Positions 2,309 through 62,824 of a stretch of 64,000 nucleotides of DNA are shown one piece after another. The notes beneath the pieces were generated by a model. It was given only the letters and a program-made list of their open reading frames with translations. It was not told where the DNA came from and searched no databases. Source of the stretch: Clostridiales bacterium (GTDB lineage: Bacteria > Bacillota > Clostridia > Oscillospirales > CAG-272); assembly GCA_021202555.1 (NCBI GenBank), contig JAJQCT010000029.1, positions 170-64,169 of the forward strand, in the 5' to 3' direction. Both the position numbers and the translations under genes were made by a program. Each line of letters begins with the position of its first letter. The stretch's first letter is position 1.

Positions 2309-4044
2309 TGATTTTCCTTCGCCTCCGTCACATACTCACGTATCAGCCGCTCCGCGTAATCCTCAAGCCCGAATGTAACCGACAGGTATCCGCTCACGCC
2401 ATATTCCACGCGCTCCACCATCGCCTCCGCAAGCCCCCTCGTCAGTCCCGCGCAAAGCAGCCTCTCCGCTACATTTTCCTCATCTGACTCAATTATTTCA
2501 ACCGATGAATACGGCGCGAGCATTACTGTCCCGCCTTCCTGCGGCGAGCCTCCCGCACCGTCAAAAAGCGTCAATTTAAGCGCGTCGCATGGGTCGGCGA
2601 CAGTATCTTCCTCAATTTCGGCAAGCCTCTCCCTGACCTCGCGCAGTCTTTCAAGGTATGCTTCCCTCGCCTCCGCATAATCGTCCCCGACTGATTTTTT
2701 ATCCGCGAAATCCTCGTAAAGCCGGTGCAGCCCGTTTTTTATGTTCGTCTCCTCCGCCAGCAGCAATTCCGTTTCCGCACGCCTATGCTTAATTGCCTCA
2801 CACGCAGCAGATTTTATCACGCCGTCATCAGCCTCAACTAAAATTCGGCATCTTATAAGGTCGAGCAAAATTTTTCTGACCGTGCGGTCGGAAACGCTGC
2901 GAGCCTTAGCGCAGCAGGAGGGCGCATCCGCGTCGCCGCGCCTGTAATTATAGTAATTTCCGCAAATATAAGACCGACGCCGAACATCCCCGCGTCTTGA
3001 CACACGCGAATAAAGCATCGCGTGTCCGCATTCCGCACAAAAAATCAGCCCGTTCAGTACGTCGGGATTTTTCTCCCTTATCTCCGCCTTGCCGTCAACG
3101 GCTTCTTTTCTCCTGCGGGAGTTATAATCGCGTATCTCACGCACAGCCTCGAAGGTCTCTTTGTCCGTCAGCGCGTCGTGAGTGTCGGGAAAGGTCATAA
3201 TCTCCCCTTTTCCGTAGACGTTATATACGGTTTCCCCTATGTACGTGCGGTTTTTCAGCAGATTTCCCACCGTGTAATTGCTCCATTTTCCCGTTGTCTT
3301 TCTTTCACGCTTATATCCGAGCTGCCTTTTTCTTTCAAGGGGCGTCGGCGCGCCGAGAGCTTCCAGCCTGCGCACAGTCTCCGTCACGCCAACTCCCGCT
3401 GCCGTCCATTTGAACATCAATCGCACAAAATCCGCGGTCTCGGGATCGGGAATCAGCCTGTAACTGCAATCCGGCATTTTAAGATACCCGTATGGCGCAA
3501 GATTGATACCCGCCACTCCCCTCATATGATTCAATCTTATCGTGTTTGTTATCTTCTGACGAATGTCTATAATGTACATTTCGTTTACCATGTTTTTTAT
3601 CGGTACCATGATGCTGTTCATCCCGTCGTCGTCAATGCTGTCATATCCGTCGTTGACGGAAATAAAGCGAATGCCCTTTTTCGGGAAGAGCTTTTCAATG
3701 TAATATCCCGCGTCAACATGATTTCTCCCGAACCGCGAAAGATCCTTGACGGCGATACAGTTGATTTTGCCCGCATCCACATCGTCCATCAGCCGTTTGA
3801 ATTCGGGACGGTCAAAGCTCATCCCCGACCGCCCGTTATCCACGTAGCATCCGACAAACCGAAGCTCCGGTCGTCGCTCTATATATTCCTTCACATACCG
3901 CACCTGATTTTGAAGCGAGCGCGAATCGTCAAGACCGCTGTTTTCATGTGAAAGCCGCGCATAGACGGCTGTATTCCACACTTTTTTTCTCGTCCGTTCA
4001 ATATACCGCTCTGTTGATTTCGGTATTCTGTCACGTCTCCCCAT
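2305..4044 (-). CDS. Large serine recombinase
   Basis: YARLS, DNGRSG, RPEFKRL, VKDLSRFGRN, IFCAECG. 4-bp stop/start overlap with the downstream recombinase. Confidence 0.93.
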   Translation of the reverse strand: MGRRDRIPKSTERYIERTRKKVWNTAVYARLSHENSGLDDSRSLQNQVRYVKEYIERRPELRFVGCYVDNGRSGMSFDRPEFKRLMDDVDAGKINCIAVKDLSRFGRNHVDAGYYIEKLFPKKGIRFISVNDGYDSIDDDGMNSIMVPIKNMVNEMYIIDIRQKITNTIRLNHMRGVAGINLAPYGYLKMPDCSYRLIPDPETADFVRLMFKWTAAGVGVTETVRRLEALGAPTPLERKRQLGYKRERKTTGKWSNYTVGNLLKNRTYIGETVYNVYGKGEIMTFPDTHDALTDKETFEAVREIRDYNSRRRKEAVDGKAEIREKNPDVLNGLIFCAECGHAMLYSRVSRRGDVRRRSYICGNYYNYRRGDADAPSCCAKARSVSDRTVRKILLDLIRCRILVEADDGVIKSAACEAIKHRRAETELLLAEETNIKNGLHRLYEDFADKKSVGDDYAEAREAYLERLREVRERLAEIEEDTVADPCDALKLTLFDGAGGSPQEGGTVMLAPYSSVEIIESDEENVAERLLCAGLTRGLAEAMVERVEYGVSGYLSVTFGLEDYAERLIREYVTEAKENQ

Positions 4045-4611
4045 TTATCCCCTCTCCTCTCCGTTTTGCGGCGTCAGAGCGCACATATCGCTCGATTTTT
4101 CGTTCTCCTGACCATTATACGCACGGCGCATCAGAAAGCTGCGATATTCAGAGCGCCTTTGCTTAAAATATCTCCCCTCCGCCGCACTCGCCGCATCCGC
4201 ATAACTGACATTTCCCGTATCAAAGCCTGTCTGCACATCCGCAAACCGAATCCCGCAGGGAATAAAAAACTCATTGACCGCGCTTTGCAGCGCATAGACC
4301 GTGGGCGCCACAGTGCCTGCGGCATAGATAACGACAGCCTCAATCGCACCCGTCTCCGCGTCGTCAAGCAGTCGTTTCCACGCCTCATTATTCTCGGCAA
4401 TCCACGCATTTCTCTCCCTGATGTCGGGAACCCTTCTCACCGCCGCCCGCGTATCGCGGTAAATTCGGGTCAGGCGCAGCGTTTCGTCCGCCCTCACGTA
4501 ATCTCTGCAAGCCGCCTCCGCATAGTTTATATCCACAAAATCTCCCCATACGCTCGGTGCAATATAAAGCGCTGTCCTTTTCTTCTCATCAGCCCTCGTC
4601 ATGCCCGTCAT
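4045..4611 (-). CDS. Degenerate resolvase-N-terminal-like protein
   Basis: RTALYIAPS resembles RTAxYxRxS; AWKRLLDDAETGAIEAVVI resembles FxxLLxDxxxGxIxxVIV; FFIPCGIRF resembles FPxxGIRF. Lacks the Arg of YxRxS and the DLSRFGR motif. Confidence 0.6.
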   Translation of the reverse strand: MTGMTRADEKKRTALYIAPSVWGDFVDINYAEAACRDYVRADETLRLTRIYRDTRAAVRRVPDIRERNAWIAENNEAWKRLLDDAETGAIEAVVIYAAGTVAPTVYALQSAVNEFFIPCGIRFADVQTGFDTGNVSYADAASAAEGRYFKQRRSEYRSFLMRRAYNGQENEKSSDMCALTPQNGEERG

Positions 4612-6244
4612 CTTCCCCTCCGTTCATAATCGTATCATAAATCGCGTCAGTGTCCCTGAACGCTATTTCCGCGCGTCCGTCACCATATATGAAAATCTTA
4701 TCAAAAAGCTCCGCTATTATGGGACGGTCGAGCGAAATTATGCTTCCGTTTTCACGAAAACTCCGAATCCACTCAGCCTCACGATAAGCGTCAAGCTCTC
4801 GCCTGCGATCCTCGGTCACACGCTCAAAAGCCGCCGCGGCGCTTTCGATTTTTCGACCGTACATCGCTGAATATTCGGAATATTCCTCCTCCGTCAGAAT
4901 ACCTGAAGCACTGCTCTCGTAAAGTCCGGATTTAAGCTTTGTGTATCGCTCGATTTCCTCACGTATCCGCAAAAGCTGCTCATCCAGACGGACAACCCGC
5001 ATTCCGCGTTCGGGAAGGCGACCGGCTTCGTCGAGCAGCCGCTCCTTTTTCACAAAAAGAGCAATTTGCGCGCAAACAGCGTCCAAAACGGATTTGTATG
5101 CCCTCTCCTCCGCGATGCGTCCGCCACGCCTCTCCGTGCCCCTGCAGTCGGGACAGCAGTAATATTTGTACCTTTTATCCTTGTAGCGGGATGCCCGGAT
5201 TACAAGCTGCCTGCCGCATTCGCCGCAAAAAAGAAAGCCGGAGAAGAGTTCAGCGCGTTCCCTGCCTTCGGCTAACCTTGTATCTCTTTTCATAAGTTCC
5301 CGCACCGTGAAAAATACCTCAGCGTCAACTATTGCCTCGTGCGTTCCCTCCGTCCTCGTCCATTCGTCGGGCGGCAGATACACATTTTCACGTGACCTGT
5401 AATCGATCTTTTTCCATTTTCCCTGAACGAGCGTGCCGATATAGCACTCATTATGAAGGATTCGATAGACGATTCCCTTTGACCACATTGCTTTGTCCCC
5501 GCGCTTGAAATAGCCCGAAATCTTCTCCCCGTTTGAAGTCCTCTGCTCGTATGGCGACAGCACTCCCTGACTGTTCAGCTTATCGGCAATTGATTTATAG
5601 CTGTATCCTTCAAGCTTCCAGAGAAATATCTGCCTTACGTGCGGAGCCGTAGTTTCATCCGGAACGAGCCTTCCCCTGTCGCGCTTGTCCCTGCAATATC
5701 CGTAGGGCGTGAAATTCGCCACGCACTCGCCGCGCCTGCGCTTCGCTTCAAGTTGTGTCTTGATTTTCACGGAAATATCCCGACAGTAGATGTCGTTTAT
5801 GAGGTTTTTCATAGGCAAAATGAGTGCGTCCGATTCCGAGCGTCTGCAAAGACTGTCGTAGCAGTCGTTCACGGCTATCATCCTCACGCCCATAAGCGGA
5901 AAAATGCGCTCAAGATACCGTCCGACCTCAATGTAGTTTCTACCGAAGCGCGAAAGATCCTTTACGATAACGCAGTTCACCGCGCCGCATTCAATGTCAT
6001 CGTACATTTGCCTGAATGCGGGTCTGTCAAAATTCGAGCCGCTCCAGCCGTCGTCTACATACTCCTCCACCACACAAAATTCGCTCTTCCCGCTGACAAA
6101 ATCCTCGATAAGCCTGCGCTGATTCACAATCGAGTCGCTCTCCTGCTTGTCCCCGTCATCCTTTGAAAGGCGCAGATAGACTGCCGTGCGGTAAACGGTG
6201 ACTCCCCGACGCGCGGCGCCTTCAAAATCATTTTTTGCTGCCAT
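4589..6244 (-). CDS. Large serine recombinase
   Basis: YLRLS, DDGWSGSNFDRPAF, VKDLSRFGRN, LFCGECG. RBS GGAGAG. Confidence 0.95.
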   Translation of the reverse strand: MAAKNDFEGAARRGVTVYRTAVYLRLSKDDGDKQESDSIVNQRRLIEDFVSGKSEFCVVEEYVDDGWSGSNFDRPAFRQMYDDIECGAVNCVIVKDLSRFGRNYIEVGRYLERIFPLMGVRMIAVNDCYDSLCRRSESDALILPMKNLINDIYCRDISVKIKTQLEAKRRRGECVANFTPYGYCRDKRDRGRLVPDETTAPHVRQIFLWKLEGYSYKSIADKLNSQGVLSPYEQRTSNGEKISGYFKRGDKAMWSKGIVYRILHNECYIGTLVQGKWKKIDYRSRENVYLPPDEWTRTEGTHEAIVDAEVFFTVRELMKRDTRLAEGRERAELFSGFLFCGECGRQLVIRASRYKDKRYKYYCCPDCRGTERRGGRIAEERAYKSVLDAVCAQIALFVKKERLLDEAGRLPERGMRVVRLDEQLLRIREEIERYTKLKSGLYESSASGILTEEEYSEYSAMYGRKIESAAAAFERVTEDRRRELDAYREAEWIRSFRENGSIISLDRPIIAELFDKIFIYGDGRAEIAFRDTDAIYDTIMNGGEDDGHDEG

Positions 6245-10274: not shown

Positions 10275-12548
10275 ATGGGCGGCTCGGAGGAATACACGGC
10301 GAACGAGGTATTTGAGCTTTTCTCGCCGTTCATACAGGATTTTATATACAGTCACGGCTGGAGCGAGCTGCGCGAAATGCAGATTTCAGCCGCAAAGACG
10401 ATTTTCCGCACGGACAATGACCTGCTTTTGACATCGGGCACGGCATCTGGCAAGACGGAGGCGGCGCTTTTCCCCATTCTCTCGCAGTTTTACGAGGACC
10501 CGCCCACATCTGTCGGCGCGCTCTATATAGCGCCTCTCAAAAGCCTTATAAACGACCAATATCAGCGTGTCGGTGAGCTATTGTCCATGACGGGAATAAA
10601 CGTCACGTACTGGCACGGCGACGTGGCACAGTCGCATAAAGCAAAGCTTTTGAAAAAACCGTCGGGAATACTTCAGATTACGCCCGAATCGCTTGAGGCA
10701 ATGCTCATGAGGCGCTCGGCGGATCTGGTGCGCCTTTTCTGCGATCTGCGCTATATCATAATCGATGAAATCCACACGCTCACAGGCACAGACAGGGGAA
10801 ATCAGGTCATATGTCAGATTACACGCCTTTCGCGCATGATAGGACACAGCCCGCGCAGAATCGGGCTTTCTGCTACTGTCGGCAACGCTGTACTTGCGGC
10901 GGATTGGCTCACGGGAGGCGACGACAGAGAGTGTGACATTCCGACTGAAGCAAAGCGCCCCGTAAAATGGCGGCTCGGCGTTGAGCATTTTTATATTGCG
11001 AGTGAAAAAACGCTTCCTTCAGGCGTTCACGAGGTGAGAAAATCCCCTTCCCTCGGAGATATGGAGCCTGACGCCTCACAGCTTCCCGCATCAATCGACC
11101 CCGGATACGAATATATCTACGACTGCACAAAGGATATGCGCGCGCTCGTCTTTTCAAATTCGCGCGAGGAAACCGAATACGTCTGCGCGACGCTTCGACA
11201 AATAGCGAAAAACCGGCGTGAGGACGATGTTTTTTACATTCATCACGGCAATCTTTCGGCGTCAATCCGCGAGGAGGCGGAGGCAGTTCTGAAGGATGAG
11301 GAAAGGCGCGCCGTTTTGTGCGCGACGACAACAATGGAGCTTGGAATCGACATCAGCAGGCTCGAACGAATCGTGCAGAACGGCTCGCCTATTTCGGTAT
11401 CGAGCTTTTTGCAGCGTCTCGGGCGCTCGGGGCGCCGCGGTGAGCCGCCCGAAATGATGGTGGTGCTTCGCGAGGACAACCCGCCGCCGAATACCCCGCT
11501 GCCGCAGCTTATCCCGTGGGAGCTTCTGCGCGCAATAGCAATAATACAGCTTTATATCGAGGAGCGCTTCATCGAGCCGCCGCCGGTGCGCAAAATGCCA
11601 TTTTCGCTTCTCTTTCAGCAAACCCTTTCGATGCTTTATTCATCAGGCGAGCTGACGCCAAAGGAGCTTGCCGACCGCATTCTGTCACTGCCGCCGTTTG
11701 AATTTATCGGGCGCGAGGACTACAGAACGCTTCTTATCTCGATGATAAAGAACGATTTTATCGAAATGACGGACGAGGGGGGTCTTATCGTCGGAATAAA
11801 GGGCGAGAGACTTACGGCGGGATTCCGCTTTTATGCCGTATTCAAGGACGCGGAGGACTTCACCGTCAGATGCGAATCGGGCGAGGTCGGCACAATAACA
11901 AAAGCGCCGCCGATTGGCGAACGCTTTGCCCTTGCGGGAAGAGTATGGGAGGTAGAGGAGCTTGACATTCCGCATAAGCTCATTTACGTGAAGCCCGTCG
12001 GCGGAAAAATGGAAATCGCGTGGCCGGGCGAGCTTGGCGAAATTCACACGAAAATACTCGCGCGTATGTACCGCGTTTTAGCGGAGGATACGGTTTATCC
12101 CTACCTGAAGGATGGCGCCGCGGCGCGGCTCGATGCCGCGCGAAGCACGGCGAGAGCTACGGGAATGCTCGATTTTCCGCTCATTTCGCTCGGAGGTATG
12201 TCATACTGCTTTTTCCCGTGGCTCGGCACACGCTCATTCCGCACGCTGCGCCGATATATCTCGAAAAAGTCGGGTGAATACAAAATCTCGGGAATTGAGT
12301 ACGAGGGAAGCTGCTATATCACATTCAGAATGGAACGCGGCTCCGCTGAGGCGCTTTACCGCAACATAAAGACGGATTTCATCCGCGGCGTGGATCCCGC
12401 AGACCTTGTGGGGCAGAATGAAACGCCCGCGTTTGACAAATACGACGATTACGTCCCCTCGGAGCTTCTGCGAAAGGCTTATATCGCGGAAAAGCTCCGA
12501 ACGGACGAAATTAAAGAACGCGCCGAAAACGATTTTAAGATCATTTAG
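10275..12548 (+). CDS. Lhr-like DEAD/DEAH-box SF2 helicase, Shango SngC-like
   Basis: GTASGKTE, APLKSLINDQ, TPESLE, DEIH, LSAT, HHGNLS, ELGIDI, QRLGRSGRR. Confidence 0.9.
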   Translation: MGGSEEYTANEVFELFSPFIQDFIYSHGWSELREMQISAAKTIFRTDNDLLLTSGTASGKTEAALFPILSQFYEDPPTSVGALYIAPLKSLINDQYQRVGELLSMTGINVTYWHGDVAQSHKAKLLKKPSGILQITPESLEAMLMRRSADLVRLFCDLRYIIIDEIHTLTGTDRGNQVICQITRLSRMIGHSPRRIGLSATVGNAVLAADWLTGGDDRECDIPTEAKRPVKWRLGVEHFYIASEKTLPSGVHEVRKSPSLGDMEPDASQLPASIDPGYEYIYDCTKDMRALVFSNSREETEYVCATLRQIAKNRREDDVFYIHHGNLSASIREEAEAVLKDEERRAVLCATTTMELGIDISRLERIVQNGSPISVSSFLQRLGRSGRRGEPPEMMVVLREDNPPPNTPLPQLIPWELLRAIAIIQLYIEERFIEPPPVRKMPFSLLFQQTLSMLYSSGELTPKELADRILSLPPFEFIGREDYRTLLISMIKNDFIEMTDEGGLIVGIKGERLTAGFRFYAVFKDAEDFTVRCESGEVGTITKAPPIGERFALAGRVWEVEELDIPHKLIYVKPVGGKMEIAWPGELGEIHTKILARMYRVLAEDTVYPYLKDGAAARLDAARSTARATGMLDFPLISLGGMSYCFFPWLGTRSFRTLRRYISKKSGEYKISGIEYEGSCYITFRMERGSAEALYRNIKTDFIRGVDPADLVGQNETPAFDKYDDYVPSELLRKAYIAEKLRTDEIKERAENDFKII

Positions 12549-14061
12549 CAGAGAGGGATTTTACGGCAAGAGCAATATTTTTCACGGTGTCCCCCGAGGT
12601 CATGCCTATATCACCGACCTCATCCGACGCCATCTCTCCCGCGACCCCGCAGACATACGCGGCTGCGGCGACAGTTTTCGGCGTCATTTCACAGTATGAC
12701 ATAAGCCCCGCGAGCGCGCCCGAAAGCACGTCCCCGCTGCCAGCCGTCGCCATGCCTGCCGAGCCGCGATTGACAATGTAAGTCTCCTTGCCGTCGGTTA
12801 CAACAGTTCCCGTCCCCTTAAGGAGAACGATTACGCCTGTCTGTTTCGCAAATTCGACGGCACAGCCTACAGGATTTTCAAGCACACCCTTGACGGGGAT
12901 TCCCGAAAGGCGCGAAAACTCTGCCGGATGAGGCGTTATTGTTACTTTATTTCTTCTGAAGGAGAAAATTTCAAGACCGTAATCTGCGACAGCGTTCAGC
13001 CCGTCGGCATCGATTATAACCTGAAGCGACCGCGTTCCGAGCGTGTGAATGAGGATTTTGAAGTTGTCTTTTCCCTGCCCCCATCCCATTCCGAGGGCAA
13101 CCGAGGACGCCTTTGAAAGCGCCGCGTCGAACAGAGGCGGGCTGTATACCATATGTCCGTCCCTGTCGGGAATGGGGAAAAGCGTGCTTTCGAGCAGATA
13201 CGGCGACACGGAGTTGACAATCGATTCGGGAACGCACAGTCTCGATATTCCACAGCCCATGCGCAGCGCGGAGGAGGAGAGATTCGCGAGCTTTGCCGCG
13301 CCCGAATATTCGCGGCAGCCGCCGATTATAACGGATGTGCCGTATGTTCCCTTATGGGAATTATGGGGACGCTTTGCGAATATGTCGTGAAAATCATCCT
13401 CATCGGGAGCGCAAACGCACGCGCCGTCGGGAGATATTCCAATATCGGCAAGCGTCAGCTCACCTATAAGGTCGCGAGCGCCGCCGAGAAAATGACCGTA
13501 CTTATAAATTCCCACAGCGACTGTAATATCAGACCTCACTGCCGACATATATTCGCCGGAATCCGATTCAAGCCCGCTGTTGATGTCGGCGCTTATGACA
13601 AAAGCGCCCGATTCGTTTATCCTGTCGATAGCGACAGCGGCATACGACTGCGGCAAGCCATGAAATCCCACGCCGAATATGCAGTCGAATATTATGCCGA
13701 AGCCCCGCAAATCGGTGTTCTCGTCAACCTTCGTAAATTCGGCGCCCGCCGACCTTGCGCGTTCAAAATAATATTCTCCGTCGGCGCTCTTTTTATCAGT
13801 CGTCGTAAATACGCGGCACGGCGTGCCGCCCTTTGCGAGAAGCTCCGCGACGGCGTACCCGTCGCCTCCGTTTCCGCCGCCGCCAGCAACTACGGCTACG
13901 GCGTCGGATTTGCTTTTGCCTGTGCGTTCGAGCACCGACAAATACGTCTCGTAAAGCGCCGCACCCGCGCGTCCCATAAGCGTCTGAGTTCCGCCCTCAA
14001 TCCTGTTTGCCGCTGAAGTATCGCATTTTCTCATTTCATCCGCGGACACAAGTGTTTTCAT
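12541..14061 (-). CDS. nnr: Bifunctional NAD(P)H-hydrate epimerase/dehydratase
   Basis: GGGGNGGDG (YjeF_N), HKGTYG, IDADGLN, TPHPAEF, ATAGSGDVLSG. Confidence 0.93.
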   Translation of the reverse strand: MKTLVSADEMRKCDTSAANRIEGGTQTLMGRAGAALYETYLSVLERTGKSKSDAVAVVAGGGGNGGDGYAVAELLAKGGTPCRVFTTTDKKSADGEYYFERARSAGAEFTKVDENTDLRGFGIIFDCIFGVGFHGLPQSYAAVAIDRINESGAFVISADINSGLESDSGEYMSAVRSDITVAVGIYKYGHFLGGARDLIGELTLADIGISPDGACVCAPDEDDFHDIFAKRPHNSHKGTYGTSVIIGGCREYSGAAKLANLSSSALRMGCGISRLCVPESIVNSVSPYLLESTLFPIPDRDGHMVYSPPLFDAALSKASSVALGMGWGQGKDNFKILIHTLGTRSLQVIIDADGLNAVADYGLEIFSFRRNKVTITPHPAEFSRLSGIPVKGVLENPVGCAVEFAKQTGVIVLLKGTGTVVTDGKETYIVNRGSAGMATAGSGDVLSGALAGLMSYCEMTPKTVAAAAYVCGVAGEMASDEVGDIGMTSGDTVKNIALAVKSLSAK

Positions 14062-14161
14062 ATGATGTCTCCTTTAACAAAATTTTTGAAATCAGCTTAT
14101 TAAAGCCTGAAAGTTTATCTTCACTATACAATAGCGCGCTAAAATATAATGTGTCACCTAT

Positions 14162-14383
14162 TGAGCGCTGTACCGTGAATATTGCGCTGCGCGCAATATT
14201 CATCTAACTTGAACGACAAGGCTGTGCCTTGTTGTTCAATGTTATTATATCATAAAAATGAGCGCTGTACCGCAAATATTCGATACGAATCTATGATTCG
14301 TATCGAATATTTGACAGACTTGATAAATGGGCTATGCCCATTTATCAATGTCTTATTATATCATAAAATGCGTCCGGGTTCAA
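14162..14383. repeat. Two tandem units of a promoter plus double-hairpin repeat
   Basis: TGAGCGCTGTACCG at 14162 and 14259. Hairpins at 14176-14202, 14209-14239, 14273-14313 and 14320-14348. Each unit ends TG(TC)TTATTATATCATAAAA. Confidence 0.9.
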
Positions 14384-14406
14384 ATCCGGAATAATATGCG
14401 AAAGGT

Positions 14407-15021
14407 ATGCCGTCAATGAAAAAATACACGAAGGTCACCTCAAAATCAAAGCTTATCGCACTCGTTCCCGCAGAGCGAGAGAGCGATATTCCCGAGGCGG
14501 GTACAAAGGTTCCCGCCGACGGCTTTGTCATGTCAGACGATATTCCGCGAAGCTGGGCGGTGTGCGGCGAGGATTCCCTCTGCGTCGCCTTCGCGAGGGT
14601 TGAGGTATCGAAAAGCGACCGTCGCGATGTCACTGTCGAATACACTATTTACGACGGATACGAGGGGTGCGGGTATGCCGCGGATATTCTCTCGACCTTA
14701 TCGGAAATTATCTTTTCGGAGAGCGGAAAATACACGATTTACTCCCCGGTCGACGCGGAAAACGAGGCGTCTGTAATCGCGCATGAGTCATGCGGATTTT
14801 ACGCGAAGGAGGGGGAGGAACACGACGGCGTGATTTTATACGTTCGCGAGCGTCCCGCATCAGCTTATACGCCGACACTGATGTGCCTCGGAATAGCCGT
14901 CGGAATGGCTGCGGGGCTTGCGGTCGGTCATATGTCTTACGGAATGTGCGTCGGCATGATTCTGGGCGCCGTCGGCGGCGTCATACTTGACGGACGTGAG
15001 CGAAAGAGACGGAAGAAATAA
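14407..15021 (+). CDS. RimJ/RimL-type GNAT acetyltransferase with C-terminal glycine-zipper membrane segment
   Basis: YEGCGYAA and ENEASVIAHESCGF GNAT motifs; C-terminal LGIAVGMAAG...GMCVGMILGAVGG. Confidence 0.7.
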   Translation: MPSMKKYTKVTSKSKLIALVPAERESDIPEAGTKVPADGFVMSDDIPRSWAVCGEDSLCVAFARVEVSKSDRRDVTVEYTIYDGYEGCGYAADILSTLSEIIFSESGKYTIYSPVDAENEASVIAHESCGFYAKEGEEHDGVILYVRERPASAYTPTLMCLGIAVGMAAGLAVGHMSYGMCVGMILGAVGGVILDGRERKRRKK

Positions 15022-15042
15022 CTTTTTTGAAGGGAGCGGACA

Positions 15043-17502
15043 ATGACGCCCGAGTTTACTTTTAATAATGACGCCGTGAATATCACGGTGCGCTCGCTCG
15101 TCGATTTTTTGTGCCGCTCGGGCGACATCGGCGGGGTCTCCTTCGGCGTGACGCCGAGGGAGGGGGAGCTTGCGCACAAGCGCCGTGAGGACGATTCCGG
15201 GCGCGCGCTGACGGAATACCCGCTTTCGCTTGACCTGACCGTCGGCAGCACGCCGTTTCATCTGACGGGTCGCGCAGACGTAATCATCCCCTCCGAAAGT
15301 GAAGGCGAGCCTGATATAATCGAGGAAATCAAGACGGTTTCCTCATCGTTTTACGGAGGCACCGCGGATATCCCCGCAGGGCATATAGCGCAGGCGGTAA
15401 TTTACGCCTATATGTGGTGCGCCGAAAAGGGAAAAAAACGAGCGGTCGTCCGCATATCGTATGTGCCGAAATCAATCGGTCGGGAGCGCAGGTTTGAGTG
15501 CCTTTTTTCATACGGCGAGCTTCGCGCCGAGTCCGTCGGGATTTTACAGGATTTTTTGCCTTGGGTTTCATATTTTCGTGAAAGAGAACTGCTTTCGGAG
15601 CGCATAAAAAAGCTTCGGTTTCCCTACGGTCGCGCGAGGGAGGGGCAGGTTGATTTCATGGAAGCCGTAATGCGCGCCGCGCGCAGAAGGTCGCGCGTCA
15701 TGATTGAGGCGCCGACGGGAATAGGCAAGACCATGGCGGCGCTTTTCCCCGCCGTCAAAAGCGTCGGGGCGGGATATACCGACAGAATATTTTATCTGAC
15801 CGCAAAGGGCTCAAACGCCTATACGGCGGAGGGTGCATCGGCGGAGCTTATATCGCGGGCAGACGGACTTCTGGGAATTACGCTCGTATCGCGCGACAAG
15901 CTTTGCATTATGTCAAAGGACATTCGGCTCGAGGGTGTCACAGGATGTCCCGGAGCCGAGGTCTGCGCCCGCGCAAAGGGGCATTATGAGCGCGTGAACG
16001 CAGCTCTCATGTCACTTGTTTTCGGGCAGCACGCGCACATTACGCCCGAGGTAATAAAGGACGCGGCAAAAAAGCACAGCGTCTGCCCATACGAGCTTGC
16101 GCTTGAGGTTTCGGATTTCGCGGACATCATTATCTGCGATTACAATTACGTATTTGACGCGACATCATCGCTTAGGCGATTTTTCGCGCAGGGCGATGAA
16201 AACACGCACAAGGGCGAGCGATATATGCTTCTTTGCGACGAGGCTCACAATCTCGCGTCGCGCGCACGGGATATGTTTTCGGCGTCGCTCACCTCGCCGA
16301 AAATAAAGGCGCTTTTATCGCTGACCGACAAAGACGGTGAGCTTTACGACGATGAGCTTCATGAAAAGCTTGATTTCCTTTTGAACAAGATGTCGGATAT
16401 AAAAGTACTCTGCTCCGATAACGCCCGTCTCGCAGACGGGGGCGTTCGTCACGGATATTATAAGTCGGGCGAGCCCTTTTTGGACGCGGCGGCGGCGGCA
16501 GCAAATGCGGCTGCCTCGGCAAGAACGCTTCTTTACCGTTCGAGGACTGCAAACGCCAAATTCCGCGCCGCACTGTCGGAATTTGTATTTTCGGCAGGCG
16601 ATTTTTCGGACAGTTCCGAACGGTTTGACAGGCGTTATGTTGCGTTTGCGGAGCTTCGCGGCGAGGAGATAAAGCTCTCGCACATCTGCCTTGACGCATC
16701 AATCGCGCTGTCAGAGACATTTTCGCGATTTTCATCGTCCGTTCTCTTTTCGGCAACGCTTGAACCGCCCGATTATTTCGCTCGCGTGCTTGGTTTAGGC
16801 AGCGAATGCGATACGCTCAAGCTTCCCTCTCCGTATGATGAGGAAAATCTCGAAATTATCATCGCCGACAAGGTAAGCACACGATTTGCCGACAGAAACG
16901 CGAGCGCAGATACAATCGCAGAGCTTGTATTCGCGGTCGCCGAGGCTCACACGGGAAATTATATATGCTATTTGCCGTCATATAAGTATCTTTCGCTTCT
17001 GCGCGACAAATTTGGAAAGCTTTACGGCGGCAAGGAGATCGATGTGACTGCTGAGGAGCGGACGGCTGGCGGATTTGACAGAAAATCGTTTCTTTCGGGA
17101 TTTGTGCCGTCTCCCGAGCGCTCGCACGTCGGATTCTGCGTTCTCGGCGGCGTTTTTTCGGAGGGAGTTGACCTTTCGGGAGACAGGCTTTCCGGCGTTA
17201 TCATCGTCGGCGTCGGTCTGCCCGGTATTTCATCGGAGCTTAATCTTTTGTCGGATTATTACGACGGGATATGCGAGAGAGGTCATGAATTTGCCTACAT
17301 TTTCCCCGGGATGAACCGCGTGCTTCAGGCGGCGGGGCGCGTAATCCGCAGCGAAAATGACAGGGGAATTGTACTGCTCATTGACGACAGATTCGCGTCG
17401 CCGCAGTATATATCGATGCTGCCGCCGCGAAAAAAAAGACCGTATCTCATCGGCAATACGTCGGGTCTATACCGTGTTCTGCATGATTTTTGGGAAAAAT
17501 AA
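15043..17502 (+). CDS. DinG/XPD-family Fe-S helicase with N-terminal PD-(D/E)XK nuclease domain
   Basis: GRAD...IEEIKT...HIAQAVIYAY (nuclease); APTGIGKT, CPYE, DYNY, DEAHNL, FSATL, SEGVD, QAAGRVIRSEND (helicase). Confidence 0.9.
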   Translation: MTPEFTFNNDAVNITVRSLVDFLCRSGDIGGVSFGVTPREGELAHKRREDDSGRALTEYPLSLDLTVGSTPFHLTGRADVIIPSESEGEPDIIEEIKTVSSSFYGGTADIPAGHIAQAVIYAYMWCAEKGKKRAVVRISYVPKSIGRERRFECLFSYGELRAESVGILQDFLPWVSYFRERELLSERIKKLRFPYGRAREGQVDFMEAVMRAARRRSRVMIEAPTGIGKTMAALFPAVKSVGAGYTDRIFYLTAKGSNAYTAEGASAELISRADGLLGITLVSRDKLCIMSKDIRLEGVTGCPGAEVCARAKGHYERVNAALMSLVFGQHAHITPEVIKDAAKKHSVCPYELALEVSDFADIIICDYNYVFDATSSLRRFFAQGDENTHKGERYMLLCDEAHNLASRARDMFSASLTSPKIKALLSLTDKDGELYDDELHEKLDFLLNKMSDIKVLCSDNARLADGGVRHGYYKSGEPFLDAAAAAANAAASARTLLYRSRTANAKFRAALSEFVFSAGDFSDSSERFDRRYVAFAELRGEEIKLSHICLDASIALSETFSRFSSSVLFSATLEPPDYFARVLGLGSECDTLKLPSPYDEENLEIIIADKVSTRFADRNASADTIAELVFAVAEAHTGNYICYLPSYKYLSLLRDKFGKLYGGKEIDVTAEERTAGGFDRKSFLSGFVPSPERSHVGFCVLGGVFSEGVDLSGDRLSGVIIVGVGLPGISSELNLLSDYYDGICERGHEFAYIFPGMNRVLQAAGRVIRSENDRGIVLLIDDRFASPQYISMLPPRKKRPYLIGNTSGLYRVLHDFWEK

Positions 17503-44386: not shown

Positions 44387-44614
44387 TTATTCGCTTGTTC
44401 CGCGCCGAAGCACAGCCTGCTCCCCCGCCGCGTATGTAATTATAGCACGCTGATTTTCGTTTGTCAAGCGTTTTTTCAAAAAAATTTGGACTTGCGGCGA
44501 TTTTTTTCGGGCTTTCCGGGTCATATCCTTTTGTGACAGGGAGCATAAGCAAAAAAATTTTCAAAAAGCACTTGACGAATGCGCTGTTTTATGCTATAAT
44601 CTTGCTTGCGCCGT

Positions 44615-61018: not shown

Positions 61019-61907
61019 AGAGCGTCCCCCTCGCGGTCGAGACAGGCGTCTCGAGCGTTATTCTTCCGATTTTTGCCGCGCGGAACTCGTCGAGCAGCAT
61101 ATTTGCCGTGCGCTCCGTTGAAACCTCGCCGCCCGACACAAGAAATCCGCGCTTTTTGCCTATTAAATTCATAAGCTCAAAGTCGGAAAGCTCGTCCCTT
61201 GACGGGATTTGCTCAAGCTTATATCTTTCGCGCAAAAGCTCGGGATAAGTCTCGCGCAGCCGCCCGAGAAGCGCCGCCGCGAGCGTTTCCGTATCGAGTA
61301 TCGCGTCCTTTATTGCGCCCGTGAAGGCGAGATTTTCGCCTACGCGGCGTTCGTCGAATTTGTGCCACAAAACGCCCGGGGTATCAAGCAGATCAAGCCC
61401 CGTCTTTGTCGCTATCCACTGCTGCCTTTGCGTAACGCCGGGACGATTTTCCGCCTTTGCGCGGCGCTCGCCGGCGAGCCTGTTTATGAGCGTCGATTTT
61501 CCGACGTTCGGTATTCCGACAATCATCACTCTGATGTGCCGTCCCGTCATTCCCTTCGCCTCGCGGCGCTTTATCTTTTCAGACAGCATTTCCGTTATCG
61601 TCGGCGTTATTTTGGAGATTCCCGCCCCCGTCACGCAGTCAATGGGAAGCGGAACGGTTTGTCCGCGATTTTTGAAATAAGAAACCCATGCGTCGGTTTT
61701 TGATGTATCGGCAAGTCCGCTTTTATTCAGTACAGTAAGCGTCGGTTTCCCCGAAAGCAGCTTTGTAATTTCGGGATTGCGCGACGAATATGGGATTCGC
61801 GCGTCGAGTATCTCGATTACGGCGTCAACAAGAGCAAGGCTTTCCTTTATCTGCCGGCGCGTCCTTGCCATATGACCGGGAAACCACTGAATTTCCGTTC
61901 CGGGCAT
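61011..61907 (-). CDS. rbgA: Ribosome biogenesis GTPase RbgA/YlqF
   Basis: IQWFPGHM, DARIP.SS, GIPNVGKS, DTPG. Confidence 0.97.
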   Translation of the reverse strand: MPGTEIQWFPGHMARTRRQIKESLALVDAVIEILDARIPYSSRNPEITKLLSGKPTLTVLNKSGLADTSKTDAWVSYFKNRGQTVPLPIDCVTGAGISKITPTITEMLSEKIKRREAKGMTGRHIRVMIVGIPNVGKSTLINRLAGERRAKAENRPGVTQRQQWIATKTGLDLLDTPGVLWHKFDERRVGENLAFTGAIKDAILDTETLAAALLGRLRETYPELLRERYKLEQIPSRDELSDFELMNLIGKKRGFLVSGGEVSTERTANMLLDEFRAAKIGRITLETPVSTARGTLCD

Positions 61908-62644
61908 TATGAAAACCTCTTAAAATGAGTGAAGCTTGAAATATCAAACACCACCCGCCCGAATATCTGCCGCTCGTCAATCACTCCGAGCAGAATATTC
62001 CGGCTGTCCGTCGAATGGTTGCGGTTATCGCCCATAACGAAAACGCATCCTTCGGGCACCGTATAGGGGAATGTGATTCCCGTCGCCGTCACCGTTCTGT
62101 CTGAGGCGAGATAACGGTATTCCGACTCGTCAAGCACTACCCCGTCAACCGTCACAGTCCATGTTTCAAAATCGATGTCTATCGTCTGCCCTCCCGTGGC
62201 GATTACGCGCTTTACAAGCGCCGTGTCGCCCCAGTAATCGCTGTCGGTTTTCTGAAAAACCACAATGTCGCCGTACTGCGGCGAATAAAGAATATCAGAG
62301 ACGATGAGCGTATCCCCGTCGTAAAGCGTGTTGTTCATTGAATTTCCGTCAACGACTGCGAGCCTTACAAAAAACGTAAAGACTATGATTATGACAGACG
62401 TTGAAATCGCAAGCGTCTCCGTCAGGTCAAACAGCATTGAGAGCGGCGAGACCTTTTCCTCGCCCGACTTATCGTCTTTTTTCGGAGGTTCCCCTCCGCC
62501 GCCATCCGCTTTCCTTGGAATTTCCTCTTTTTTGCCCGCGTTCATGTTAAAATCTTCCGCGTCAACATCGATTCCCTTCAGATTGAAAAAATCTCCGTCC
62601 TGACCGTTTCCCATGCTGCCGTTCATATTGTTCTCGTTCATCAA
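61907..62644 (-). CDS. lepB: Signal peptidase I
   Basis: GNSM..TL, VKRVIA, FVMGDNRNHSTDSR. Confidence 0.95.
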   Translation of the reverse strand: MMNENNMNGSMGNGQDGDFFNLKGIDVDAEDFNMNAGKKEEIPRKADGGGGEPPKKDDKSGEEKVSPLSMLFDLTETLAISTSVIIIVFTFFVRLAVVDGNSMNNTLYDGDTLIVSDILYSPQYGDIVVFQKTDSDYWGDTALVKRVIATGGQTIDIDFETWTVTVDGVVLDESEYRYLASDRTVTATGITFPYTVPEGCVFVMGDNRNHSTDSRNILLGVIDERQIFGRVVFDISSFTHFKRFS

Positions 62645-62696
62645 TTCACCTCACTAAGGTCTCTGACCGTTTCTAAACGTCTTATTCGATAATATC

Positions 62697-62824
62697 GAGC
62701 GCTAAACCGCAAATATTCGATTCAAATCTATGATTTTAATCGAATATTTGACAGACTTGAATAATGAATCTGCGATTTATTATTCAATGTCTTATTATAC
62801 CATATAAAGCGCCAAACCGCAAAT
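62697..62824. repeat. Third copy of the promoter plus double-hairpin repeat, plus the start of a further truncated unit
   Basis: GAGCGCTAAACCG, hairpin 62710-62750, ACAGAC, hairpin 62757-62787, TGTCTTATTATACCAT, then AGCGCCAAACCGCAAAT. Confidence 0.9.

What the first reader, a model, noticed from the sequence alone, without database searches (positions are those of the whole stretch)
14162..14383. Tandem array of promoter + double-hairpin units with variable but self-complementary stems
Seen directly: two units starting 97 bp apart, each TGAGCGCTGTACCG-[hairpin A]-6-nt linker-[hairpin B]-TG(TC)TTATTATATCATAAAA. Stems are 12, 14 (one mismatch), 19 and 13 bp. Only the stem bases are conserved (A: (C/T)(A/G)AATATT...AATATT(T/C)(G/A); B: TTGA...TCAA). 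The inner stem differs completely between units yet still pairs. All four loops are 3 nt closed by C-G; on the minus strand they read C-GCA-G, C-ACA-G, C-ATA-G and C-ATA-G. Read on the minus strand, each unit starts with TG-n-TATAAT 4-6 nt before hairpin B; the outer unit has TTGAAC-17-TATAAT. Established: C-GNA-G triloops are exceptionally stable in DNA, and triloop hairpins act as cruciform-extruded signals in phage N4 vRNAP promoters. Inference: this is an unannotated family of either short (~70-80 nt) two-stem sRNA genes, each with its own promoter, or DNA cruciform/recombination sites in the attC or REP style (conserved ends, variable core). It is my best candidate for an undescribed system in this window.
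Basis: partly seen in the sequence, partly recalled or inferred. Interest (0 to 1): 0.8.

Follow-up and report, generated by a model that had tools for sequence, protein, structure and literature searches.

The report
Promoter-linked double-hairpin repeat family
The two units belong to a family of about 140 short repeats, scattered through this uncultured gut-type bacterium, in which two hairpins of variable sequence sit beside a promoter-like box just upstream of genes, much like the small repeat families known from other bacteria.

Summary
The finding is not a local oddity. A covariance model finds at least 143 non-overlapping units at 96 loci in this 1.97-Mb genome. It finds 38 hits in one sister species and none in 39 other relatives.

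A unit is a head box, hairpin A, a linker, hairpin B and an AT box. The stems covary heavily: 98.4% of cells are paired, and 90 of 144 hairpins are distinct. Stem bases, T-R-Y triloops, head and linker stay fixed.

Read on the opposite strand, the AT box is the organism's TRTGnTATAAT promoter type, and it points through the head at the neighbouring gene start. Between same-direction genes, 37 of 43 loci have this orientation. Downstream genes are functionally diverse.

The hairpins fold better on the unit (+) strand, where G·T mismatches outnumber A·C 26 to 7. There, hairpin B plus its U-rich tail looks like a terminator.

No HUH, IS110, TnpB, RT, rve or DDE_Tnp_1 gene and no second tyrosine recombinase was found. 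One orthologous site is empty and keeps a single promoter.

Verdict: a new lineage-specific, promoter-coupled interspersed repeat of the REP/BOX/Correia kind. It is not an attC site, and it is not a set of minus-strand sRNA genes. No RNA data exist, so which strand is transcribed remains inferred.

The parts
14162..14258 (+). Unit 1: head 14162-14175, hairpin A 14176-14202 (12-bp stem, loop TGC), linker 14203-14208, hairpin B 14209-14239 (14-bp stem with one G·T, loop TGT; stem extended by linker/tail pairing past a bulged T), AT box 14240-14258
   Evidence: CM R1 hit C38:14331-14426, 99.4 bits
14259..14369 (+). Unit 2: head 14259-14272, hairpin A 14273-14313 (19-bp perfect stem, loop TAT), linker 14314-14319, hairpin B 14320-14348 (13-bp perfect stem, loop TAT), AT box 14349-14369
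   Evidence: CM R1 hit C38:14428-14537, 117.6 bits
14355..14383 (-). Outer promoter-like site on the gene-sense (minus) strand: TTGAAC, 17 nt, TATAAT with TG, 10 of 12 matches. It reads through units 2 and 1 towards the gene at 14061-12541
14244..14252 (-). Inner extended -10 box TGATATAAT (minus strand), in the AT box between units 1 and 2
   Evidence: read from the sequence
14373..14390 (-). Small hairpin TCCGGA-TTTGAA-CCCGGA followed by a T-rich run, flagged terminator-like. It overlaps the -35 of the outer promoter
12541..14061 (-). Gene on the head side of units 1-2: bifunctional NAD(P)H-hydrate repair enzyme (YjeF_N + Carb_kinase). Its start lies 100 nt beyond the head of unit 1
14407..15021 (+). 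Divergent gene on the tail side: GNAT acetyltransferase, 38 nt after unit 2
62696..62810 (+). Unit 3: 19-bp hairpin A with one C·T mismatch, 14-bp hairpin B with one G·T, AT box TTATTATACCATA
   Evidence: CM hit C38:62865-62976, 117.9 bits
62809..62835 (+). Degenerate start of a further unit: head-like AGCGCCAAACCG plus the left arm of an A hairpin, with no right arm
   Evidence: similar truncated ends at other arrays
61907..62644 (-). Gene on the head side of unit 3: signal peptidase I (Peptidase_S26), followed by a GTPase gene

Best explanation
The units are members of a lineage-restricted, high-copy family of modular interspersed repeats. Each unit is a head box, hairpin A, a linker, hairpin B and an AT box, with an optional third hairpin. 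The family lives in promoter regions.

Shown:
- There are at least 143 units at 96 loci, as singles and as arrays of up to 5.
- The stems are held paired through many compensatory changes, while stem bases, triloops, head and linker are fixed.
- Units sit next to gene starts with the head towards the gene.
- On the gene-sense strand the AT box matches the organism's extended -10 promoter consensus (TRTGnTATAAT).
- Sites are gained, lost and remodelled between two sister species.

Inferred mechanism: each unit works as a one-way promoter cassette. The AT box fires through the head towards the adjacent gene, and in arrays it supplies several tandem promoters. The hairpin pair acts as RNA on the opposite (unit) strand. 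There, hairpin B plus the U-rich AT box forms a terminator-like back-stop for transcripts running away from the gene. Where the AT box is missing, the pair acts as a stable leader or intercistronic structure.

Spread and turnover most likely go through recombination between AT boxes and between units (gene conversion, unequal crossing-over), not through a dedicated transposase that is still present.
For: Family size and distribution:
- CM R1 gives 147 hits in G000, which reduce to 143 non-overlapping units at 96 loci.
- It gives 38 hits in G012 and 0 in 39 other relatives, 17 of them in the same genus.

Structure:
- On 23 units, 98.4% of cells are paired, 22 of 33 pairs have changes on both sides, and 0 of 500 shuffles reach this.
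- 90 of 144 hairpins are distinct, with 53 mismatches in 2101 stem pairs.
- The linker/tail extension of stem B covaries: G-C in 38 units and A-T in 28, of 71.

Position:
- Between co-directional genes, 37 loci are antisense (head to the downstream start) and 6 are sense (p = 1.6e-6).
- 36 loci are divergent and 8 convergent. The background for intergenic regions of 100 nt or more is 165/341/123 divergent/tandem/convergent (p = 0.004).
- 3 further apparent exceptions are tRNA genes that obey the rule.

Promoter:
- 93 of 143 tails hold a -10 hexamer matching at 5 of 6 or better on the gene-sense strand, 75 of them with TG. Random intergenic 33-mers give 20% and 3%.
- At several loci the head-adjacent box lies about 15-50 nt before an RBS and start codon.
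- The same box type precedes tRNA-Ser in the window.

Unit-strand folding:
- G·T mismatches outnumber A·C 26 to 7 over 72 units, and 22 to 6 over distinct hairpins.
- The unit strand is the negative-GC-skew strand at 46 of 70 loci, so replication bias predicts the opposite asymmetry.
- B plus tail is flagged terminator-like on the + strand in both window units.
- 5 units directly between ABC exporter genes, and the array in a tRNA-Arg leader, lie in sense orientation and lack the AT box.

Turnover:
- The G012 locus L136 has 2 units and 3 AT boxes. The G000 ortholog (C25) has one promoter and no unit.
- 9 of 17 G012 loci are occupied in both species, with different unit numbers or hairpin types.

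Downstream genes are diverse.
Against: - No RNA data exist for this organism, so no transcript start or end is shown on either strand.
- Only 26 of 71 tails carry a perfect TGnTATAAT, and only 23 of 93 arrays have a TG-extended -10 next to the head. The promoter module is therefore often degenerate or absent.
- The U-tract after B is interrupted (TGTCTTATTATA) and weaker than that of a bona fide terminator seen in G012.
- No strong unit-strand promoter is evident. There are only -10-like TATTAT, TATCAT and TAAAAT hexamers (82 of 143). The source of unit-sense RNA upstream of genes is therefore unclear.
- Copies are related, so the G·T against A·C counts are not independent. A looser parse gave a weaker ratio, 60 to 31.
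- Perfect palindromes can also be kept perfect by template-switch correction without any selection on RNA.
- Gene context rests on a crude ORF caller.
Confidence: 0.55

Rival explanations
1. Each unit is a gene for a small RNA of about 95-110 nt on the unit (+) strand. Under this reading the weak -10 (TATCAT, TAAAAT) in the preceding AT box starts the RNA at the head. The conserved single-stranded head is a seed or protein-binding site. Hairpin A is a structural module, and hairpin B with the U-rich tail is the terminator.
For: - G·T mismatches exceed A·C on this strand.
- B plus tail is terminator-like on this strand.
- A + strand promoter-like site, TTATCA-16-TAAAAT, lies in the AT box that follows unit 2 (14342-14369). 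In an array the box in this position precedes the next head.
- Unit-strand -10-like hexamers occur in 82 of 143 tails.
- Head and linker are conserved in both species.
- Unit boundaries coincide with a putative start and terminator.
Against: - About 140 copies with 90 or more different stems and no common target is unlike known sRNA families.
- The family is not found in 17 same-genus species searched.
- The unit-strand promoters lack TG and a good -35.
- The spacing between the box and the head varies by 2-6 nt.
- Units survive without AT boxes inside operons and in a tRNA leader.
- No RNA data exist.
Confidence: 0.2
2. One reading: minus-strand sRNA genes of 70-80 nt, each driven by its TGnTATAAT and consisting of hairpin B followed by hairpin A.
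For: There is a strong extended -10 directly before hairpin B. A hairpin at the very 5' end would stabilise an RNA in Bacillota (established knowledge, recalled).
Against: - In the two window units the scan finds no terminator-like site after hairpin A on this strand, and none was seen by eye in the other units printed. Transcripts would therefore run on into the next unit or the gene.
- The extended stem B includes the bases just downstream of TATAAT, so an RNA started there could not form it.
- Stem mismatches are C·A on this strand.
- The orientation rule fits promoters for the flanking genes.
Confidence: 0.07
3. The hairpins are single-stranded DNA recombination or transposition sites, in the attC, REP/RAYT or IS200/IS605-PATE style, and the family is a non-autonomous mobile element.
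For: - The hairpins have a conserved base, a variable apex and a bulged base in stem B.
- One linker type, ATCTAAC, fits the attC R'' consensus RYYYAAC (recalled consensus).
- There is an insertion/deletion polymorphism with AT boxes at both ends, and a precise 29-nt gain or loss of hairpin B.
- The distribution, one species plus its sister, is like that of parasitic repeats (abstract of PMC3049150).
Against: - G000 (97.8% complete) has no Y1 HUH, IS110, TnpB, RVT_1, rve or DDE_Tnp_1 gene. It has a single tyrosine recombinase, of the type that is the best match in all 5 genomes compared.
- The strand that tolerates G·T is mostly not the lagging-strand template.
- 9 of 17 loci are shared across species whose flanks are 70-90% identical, so mobility is low.
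- There are no terminal inverted repeats between unit ends (read).
- No Rfam family, attC included if held, matches at E up to 10.
Confidence: 0.12
4. The palindromes act as double-stranded DNA, as cruciforms upstream of promoters that sense supercoiling or serve as N4-like hairpin promoters. Alternatively they have no function and are kept perfect only by template-switch (quasipalindrome) correction.
For: - The palindromes are perfect, with 3-nt centres, and lie at about -40 to -120 of the head-adjacent promoter.
- In one orthologous hairpin the apical stem is about 50% identical, by eye, while the flanks are about 88-90% identical. This fits conversion or correction as well as it fits selection.
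Against: - A cruciform or neutral model predicts no G·T against A·C strand asymmetry and no fixed loop orientation. T-R-Y loops (TGT 60, TAT 57, TGC 35, TAC 8 = 160) stand against 16 inverted ATA/ACA loops among the 196 hairpins parsed.
- The centres of the short A hairpins are GC-rich, which is poor for extrusion (established knowledge, recalled).
- Nothing real was found in viral contigs.
Confidence: 0.08

Closest known systems
Pneumococcal BOX elements (boxA-boxB(n)-boxC), with RUP and SPRITE
   Same: These are small, modular, strongly folded interspersed repeats in a ~2-Mb Bacillota genome. They are present in one species and at lower density in its closest relative, and are almost absent from other congeners. 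Modules vary in number, no encoded transposase is known, and transposition is slow. They are thought to affect co-transcribed genes. SPRITE is terminator-like, with an 18-bp stem and a U-rich tract. (PMC3049150: abstract and passages read.)
   Different: No sequence relation was tested, because no BOX sequence was at hand. By the passages read, the regions downstream of coding sequences are the ones said to tolerate pneumococcal repeat insertions, with SPRITE most enriched there. This family is enriched beside gene starts. It carries a consensus extended -10 box. Its stems are hypervariable while the stem bases and triloops stay fixed.
Neisseria Correia elements / 'putative mobile promoters'
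   Same: These are repeats that bring functional promoters to neighbouring genes. Promoter reuse separate from the downstream gene has been described (PMC3575422, abstract and first paragraph read; a passage of PMC3049150 on Correia promoters).
   Different: Correia elements have terminal inverted repeats and TA target duplications (recalled). Neither is seen here. Here the promoter box itself flanks the array on both sides.
REP/BIME and REPIN elements with RAYT transposases
   Same: They are high-copy extragenic palindromes that persist for long periods, occur singly or in clusters, and act on mRNA stability or termination (recalled; abstract of PMC8049555 seen in the listing).
   Different: No Y1 or RAYT gene is present. 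Each unit has two different hairpins with variable apices, not one conserved palindrome. The family is linked to promoters.
Integron attC sites
   Same: They are folded hairpins conserved only at the base, with a variable centre and extrahelical bases, and they occur in arrays (recalled).
   Different: There is no integron integrase; G000 has a single tyrosine recombinase. Units lie upstream of gene starts and not behind promoterless cassettes. Each unit has two hairpins. No Rfam match was found.

Membership tests
REP/REPIN (RAYT-mobilised) | A Y1 HUH (RAYT) transposase gene in the genome, usually flanked by the repeats | tested here: not met
   PF01797: 0 matches in G000 (97.8% complete). The control search hit 6 of 14 known genomes.
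REP/REPIN (RAYT-mobilised) | High-copy extragenic imperfect palindromes | tested here: met
   143 units at 96 intergenic loci
Integron attC | An integron integrase (IntI-type tyrosine recombinase) with an attI site | tested here: not met
   PF00589: one match in G000, of the same type that is the best match in all 5 genomes compared
Integron attC | Position at the 3' end of promoterless cassettes in a one-directional array | tested here: not met
   37 of 43 tandem-context loci are antisense, upstream of the next gene. Only the ABC-exporter arrays resemble this layout.
Integron attC | R''/R' boxes (RYYYAAC ... GTTRRRY) and extrahelical bases | tested here: inconclusive
   The linker type ATCTAAC fits R''. 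The other linker type (ACAGAC) and the tails do not fit. A bulged T is present in 58 of 71 units. The consensus is recalled, not taken from a call.
MITE | Terminal inverted repeats and short target-site duplications; a related IS in the genome | tested here: not met
   Head and tail are not inverted copies of each other (read). No rve, DDE_Tnp_1, IS110 or TnpB gene was found. The flanking AT boxes of about 16 nt are far longer than usual duplications.
Pneumococcal BOX-type modular repeats | Homology to the boxA, boxB or boxC modules | not testable with these tools
   No BOX sequences or models were at hand. Only the architecture and distribution could be compared.
Known RNA families (Rfam 15) | A covariance-model match at or near the gathering score | tested here: not met
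   Window 13000-15500 at E up to 10: only mir-3145, 19.3 bits against a gathering score of 98. Whole window at gathering score: two tRNAs.
Phage N4 vRNAP hairpin promoters | A phage context, with short hairpins of 5-7 bp and 3-nt loops used by a virion RNA polymerase | tested here: not met
   The short hairpin A pattern gave 0 viral contigs. The 27 viral loci with the linker pattern gave 0 CM hits. Stems here are 12-20 bp and chromosomal. The defining features are recalled.

The most novel reading that the evidence does not exclude
The family is a promoter-seeking mobile cassette. Under this reading a roughly 100-nt double-hairpin module, possibly moving through a folded single-stranded DNA or an RNA intermediate, integrates at extended -10 boxes by an unrecognised or now lost enzyme. 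It duplicates the box and so multiplies and redistributes promoters across the genome. That would be a self-propagating 'mobile promoter' system, with attC-like hairpins that have a conserved base and a variable apex.
Probability: 0.12. Interest if true: 0.8.

Novelty: new variant of a known kind. Interest (0 to 1): 0.5.

Why it matters
If the reading holds, about one promoter region in fifteen of this small genome carries a copy of one repeated cassette. That estimate compares 96 loci with roughly 1,590 crudely called genes. Expression of many unrelated genes would then be shaped by a selfish or domesticated repeat. These include tRNA genes, a Glu/Gln-type tRNA synthetase, signal peptidase and ABC exporters.

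The family gives a clean natural data set for two open questions. The first is how promoters are copied around bacterial genomes. The second is how perfect hairpins are maintained: by selection on RNA, or by hairpin-templated correction. The data set holds 90 or more stem variants with a fixed base and loop.

Practically, these repeats break short-read assemblies of this lineage. Seven loci lie at contig ends. The repeats would be mis-called as sRNAs or terminators by automatic annotation.

Tried and rejected
- **Rfam.** There is no family match.
- **RNA evidence.** No RNA holder is listed for window:12000-16000, so expression could not be examined.
- **DNA contigs.** Contigs of 4 runs were laid. 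A strain about 96% identical covers both flanks. Its contigs stop matching at 14157 and resume at 14353. Summed depth over the units is about 60-fold the flank depth. No contig bridges the units, so nothing on copy-number polymorphism could be concluded.
- **Genome-contig scan with the linker pattern.** It gave 114 stretches, of which 80 were listed. Ten of these loci were checked with the CM, and only L031 (the sister-species MAG) was positive. The other 70 listed loci were not checked.
- **Viral scans.** The short hairpin A pattern gave 0 stretches. The linker pattern gave 27, and 0 of these 27 hit the CM.
- **Metagenome scan with the short hairpin A pattern.** It gave 2 contigs, and 0 of 2 hit the CM.
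- **Partner enzymes.** Y1 HUH, IS110 DEDD, TnpB, RVT_1, rve and DDE_Tnp_1 were not found in G000 or G012. Y1 HUH was searched in G000 only. Serine recombinases are present (5 in G000), but they also occur in non-carriers, so they do not track the family. A retroposition idea was dropped for lack of any RT gene.
- **Orthologs of the 506-aa gene.** In 4 other genus members they are about 47-54% identical, with different neighbours and no units. They are too distant to define an empty site.
- **Leader peptide.** An ATG-AGC-GCT-GTA-CCG reading at the unit junction was considered and rejected, because most heads are not preceded by ATG.
- **Looser hairpin parse.** It mixed in out-of-register pairs. 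Its mismatch counts are reported but not relied on.
- **Four G012 loci (L140, L219, L223, L225).** Their flanks map to separate places in G000, or no unit lies within about 1 kb. They were left unresolved.
- **Literature.** No paper describing this family turned up in three searches. These are word searches and cannot find a sequence, so the family may still be in print.
Full report
**1. The observation**

The repeat finder returns the 22-nt head-plus-stem-base repeat at 14162 and 14259, 97 bp apart. It returns the exact 16-nt tail repeat at 14242 and 14353. It also returns four inverted repeats with 3-nt spacers. Their stems are 12 bp (100%), 14 bp (93%), 19 bp (100%) and 13 bp (100%).

Each unit folds far better than shuffles. 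The energies are -40 and -47.7 kcal/mol, with z-scores of -6.75 and -9.56, and 0 of 200 shuffles fold as well. The minus-strand TTGAAC-17-TATAAT with an upstream TG is found by the consensus scan.

A third unit lies at 62696-62810 in the same orientation. It is followed by a truncated fourth: a head plus the left arm of hairpin A only.

Rfam gives nothing. At E up to 10 the only match is mir-3145, at 19.3 bits against a gathering score of 98. At gathering score the whole window holds two tRNAs.

**2. It is a genome-wide family**

The window is C38:170-64169 of a 1,970,604-base assembly in 40 contigs, with 51% G+C.

A scan for hairpins with a 3-nt loop, a stem of 10 bp or more and at most 1 mismatch finds 649. 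C-YRY-G and C-RYA-G loops dominate the list. Contig C38 holds 38 such hairpins, against 5 after shuffling.

I aligned 23 units and scored my structure on that alignment:
- 98.4% of 673 cells are paired.
- 22 of 33 pairs have changes on both sides.
- 0 of 500 shuffles reach this, and slid controls give 33-44% paired.

A covariance model built from the alignment gives 147 hits at E up to 0.01 in the genome. Only 150 of 1258 first-look candidates were scored, so this is a lower bound. The hits reduce to 143 non-overlapping units at 96 loci: 59 singles, 30 pairs, 5 triples, one array of 4 and one of 5. Seven loci touch contig ends.

A stricter parse gives 72 clean units. In these, 90 of 144 hairpins are distinct, and only 53 of 2101 stem pairs are mismatched.

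The fixed parts are:
- the head, (G/A)AGCGCTGTACCG;
- the base of A, YRAATATT;
- the linker, ACAGAC, TCAGAC or TCTAAC;
- the base of B, mostly TTGA;
- the T-R-Y triloops closed by C-G;
- the tail, TGT(C)TTATTATAYCATA.

Stem B runs 3-4 bp further past a bulged T, which is present in 58 of 71 units. This extension covaries: the linker/tail pair is G-C in 38 units and A-T in 28, of 71.

A third, optional hairpin module sits inside B in some units. Its motif occurs 17 times, and it accounts for the 147-nt CM hits.

**3. Distribution**

The degenerate linker pattern occurs 43 times in G000 and 11 times in G012, a same-genus assembly that is 61% complete. It does not occur in the 39 other relatives.

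The covariance model agrees. It gives 38 hits in G012 and none in 39 other genomes, 17 of them of the same genus.

G012 is the record titled 'MAG: Bacillota bacterium isolate U.5_11'. The positions in L031 equal those of G012:C33.

The wider scans added nothing real:
- The hits of the genome-contig scan were mostly single chance matches. Of the 10 checked with the model, only L031 scored.
- None of 27 viral loci scored.
- Neither of 2 metagenome contigs scored.

The family was therefore found in two sister species only.

**4. Where the units sit**

I used a crude ORF-based gene call: 1586 genes, 88% coding. By this call, the gene on the head side lies on the opposite strand at 79 of 93 loci.

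Orientation carries information only between co-directional genes. There, 37 loci have the unit antisense, with the head towards the start of the downstream gene, and 6 have it in sense (binomial p = 1.6e-6).

By region type the loci are 36 divergent, 43 tandem and 8 convergent. The background for intergenic regions of 100 nt or more is 165, 341 and 123 (chi-square p = 0.004).

Three of the apparent exceptions are tRNA genes (Glu, Val, Gln) whose starts face the head.

Head-side genes are unrelated in function.
- Of 20 sampled from 63 loci, 12 had Pfam matches. They are an aminotransferase, a ParA-type ATPase, a small exporter, a pseudouridine synthase, two ABC ATPases, an M20 peptidase, a starch synthase, VanZ, a mini-RNase III, prephenate dehydratase and a Glu/Gln-type tRNA synthetase.
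- The other 8 had no match.
- In the window, the head-side genes are an NAD(P)HX repair enzyme and signal peptidase I.

**5. The AT box as a promoter**

On the gene-sense strand the tail reads TTTTATG(A/G)TATAAT. This is the TRTGnTATAAT form typical of Bacillota, a consensus I recall and did not take from a call. The same box precedes tRNA-Ser in the window.

The counts for a -10 hexamer matching at 5 of 6 or better on the gene-sense strand are:

| Region tested | With -10 hexamer | With TG extension |
|---|---|---|
| Unit tails (n = 143) | 93 | 75 |
| 30 nt beyond the head (n = 93 arrays) | 47 | 23 |
| Random intergenic 33-mers | 20% | 3% |

A perfect TGnTATAAT is present in 26 of 71 tails.

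Many arrays are thus bounded by AT boxes on both sides. At several loci the head-adjacent box lies about 15-50 nt before an RBS and start codon.

The promoter module is frequent but not universal.

**6. Which strand folds**

On the unit (+) strand, stem mismatches are G·T or T·G 26 times and A·C or C·A 7 times over 72 units. Over distinct hairpins the counts are 22 and 6. A looser, noisier parse gives 60 and 31. In the 12 G012 units printed I read 3 against 0 by eye.

The unit strand is the local negative-GC-skew strand at 46 of 70 loci, and at 28 of the 39 loci with strong skew. Replication-linked C-to-T bias, and deamination of the non-template strand during gene-sense transcription, would both give the opposite asymmetry. 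This last step is inference from established mutation biases.

Three further observations point the same way:
- Loop orientation is kept. T-R-Y loops number 160 (TGT 60, TAT 57, TGC 35, TAC 8). The inverted ATA and ACA forms number 16, among the 196 hairpins parsed.
- On the + strand, B plus its tail is flagged terminator-like in both window units.
- The extended stem B includes the bases just after the gene-sense TATAAT. An RNA started there could not form the full stem.

**7. Sense-oriented copies**

Five units lie directly between paralogous ABC exporter genes on C14 and C23 (Pfam). They are in sense orientation, start at the stop codon, and have TGTCATGCAGGC in place of the AT box.

On C23, three to four units without AT boxes lie in the unit sense between a TTTACA-17-TAAAAT promoter and tRNA-Arg. 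The tRNA begins 10 nt after the last hairpin B. Unless a promoter has gone unseen, this array is transcribed in the unit sense as a tRNA leader.

So the AT box is missing exactly where a terminator, or an antisense promoter, would do harm.

**8. Evolution**

Flanks of G012 loci match G000 at about 70-92% identity. I compared 17 G012 loci with G000:
- At 9, G000 has units in the orthologous intergenic region: L142, L144, L146, L218, L220, L221, L222, L224 and L227.
- At 1 (L136 against C25), G000 has a single TTTTATGGTACAAT promoter 34 nt before the start codon and no unit. G012 has two units and three AT boxes, the last about 30 nt before the start codon.
- At 1 (L217 against C30), G000 has only a lone hairpin B directly after a TTGACA-17-TATAAT promoter.
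- At 1 (L226 against C3), G000 holds a different, local double-hairpin repeat.
- At 1 (L216 against C36), G000 has a larger deletion.
- 4 are unresolved.

Shared loci differ in unit number and in hairpin types.

In one orthologous unit (C36:102759 against G012 C179), head and promoter are about 88-90% identical. The apical stem of hairpin A is only about half identical, as estimated by eye from the alignment, yet it is paired in G000 and mostly paired in G012. Hairpin B is present in G000 only, as an exact 29-nt difference.

The unit consensus is the same in both species, and several stem types are shared.

This fits old, slowly moving repeats that are remodelled by gene conversion and hairpin-level insertions and deletions.

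**9. No partner enzyme**

G000 is 97.8% complete. It has no match to Y1_Tnp, DEDD_Tnp_IS110, the TnpB zinc-ribbon domain, RVT_1, rve or DDE_Tnp_1.

It has one tyrosine recombinase, of the type that is also the best match in the other four genomes compared. It has five serine recombinases, a family that non-carriers also have.

**10. Reading**

The safest statement is that the finding is a member of a new, lineage-specific family of promoter-coupled structured repeats. In kind, the family is closest to pneumococcal BOX/SPRITE, Correia and REP elements.

The BOX comparison rests on the abstract and passages of PMC3049150. Those elements show the same 'species plus nearest relative' distribution, modularity, strong folds and slow movement. 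By the passages read, the regions downstream of coding sequences are the ones said to tolerate such insertions.

The idea of reused or mobile promoters is in PMC3575422, of which I read the abstract and first paragraph.

My mechanistic commitment is a one-way promoter cassette. The AT box drives the adjacent gene. The hairpins act as RNA in the unit sense, as a back-stop terminator or a stable structure. This is inferred, and I put it at a little over even odds.

The main rival is that the units are + strand sRNA genes. No RNA run holds this organism, so the strand question stays open.

Three literature searches turned up no description of this family. Word searches cannot exclude one.

Noticed in passing
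window about 1832-6184 (G000:C38:2001-6353), minus strand: Three large serine recombinase genes lie in tandem (open frames of 576, 579 and 561 aa with Resolvase domains). A fourth large one on C1 has a repeat unit about 400 nt upstream. This may mark a mobile element at the start of the window.
   Followed up: partly
G000:C3:18080-18540: A second, purely local repeat: three tandem units of about 110 nt, each with two hairpins and a TCTTTTATTACC tail, in a convergent intergenic region. The second hairpin differs completely between units yet stays paired. At the orthologous place G012 has a degenerate unit of the main family.
   Followed up: partly
G000:C14:15150-24700 and C23:67000-73900: Runs of paralogous ABC exporter genes of about 600 aa. 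Several are followed at the stop codon by a sense-oriented unit without an AT box, and that unit is flanked by a direct repeat of about 28 nt of the gene's last codons.
   Followed up: partly
G000:C23:34819-35250: An array of three to four units without AT boxes lies between a TTTACA-17-TAAAAT promoter and tRNA-Arg(CCG), which starts 10 nt after the last hairpin. The units appear to form the tRNA leader.
   Followed up: partly
window 14373-14390: The hairpin TCCGGGTTCAAATCCGGA resembles a tRNA T-arm (GGTTCAAATCC). On the minus strand it is flagged terminator-like, and it overlaps the -35 of the outer promoter.
   Followed up: no
window 44587-44602: The promoter-type box TTTTATGCTATAATCT lies 12 nt before tRNA-Ser. 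It is the same box type as the units' AT box but has no hairpins, so the box is the organism's generic promoter form.
   Followed up: partly
G000:C28:150798-151325 and G012:C75:3407-3934: The only tyrosine recombinase gene of G000 has units about 1.2 kb away, and the same holds for its G012 ortholog. With one locus per about 20 kb this may be chance.
   Followed up: no
G000:C14 end (about 24840 onward) and G012 locus L217 positions about 2190-2280: A long poly-G run lies at a contig end right after a unit. A run of N lies inside a G012 array. Both are assembly artefacts or masked stretches at the repeats.
   Followed up: no
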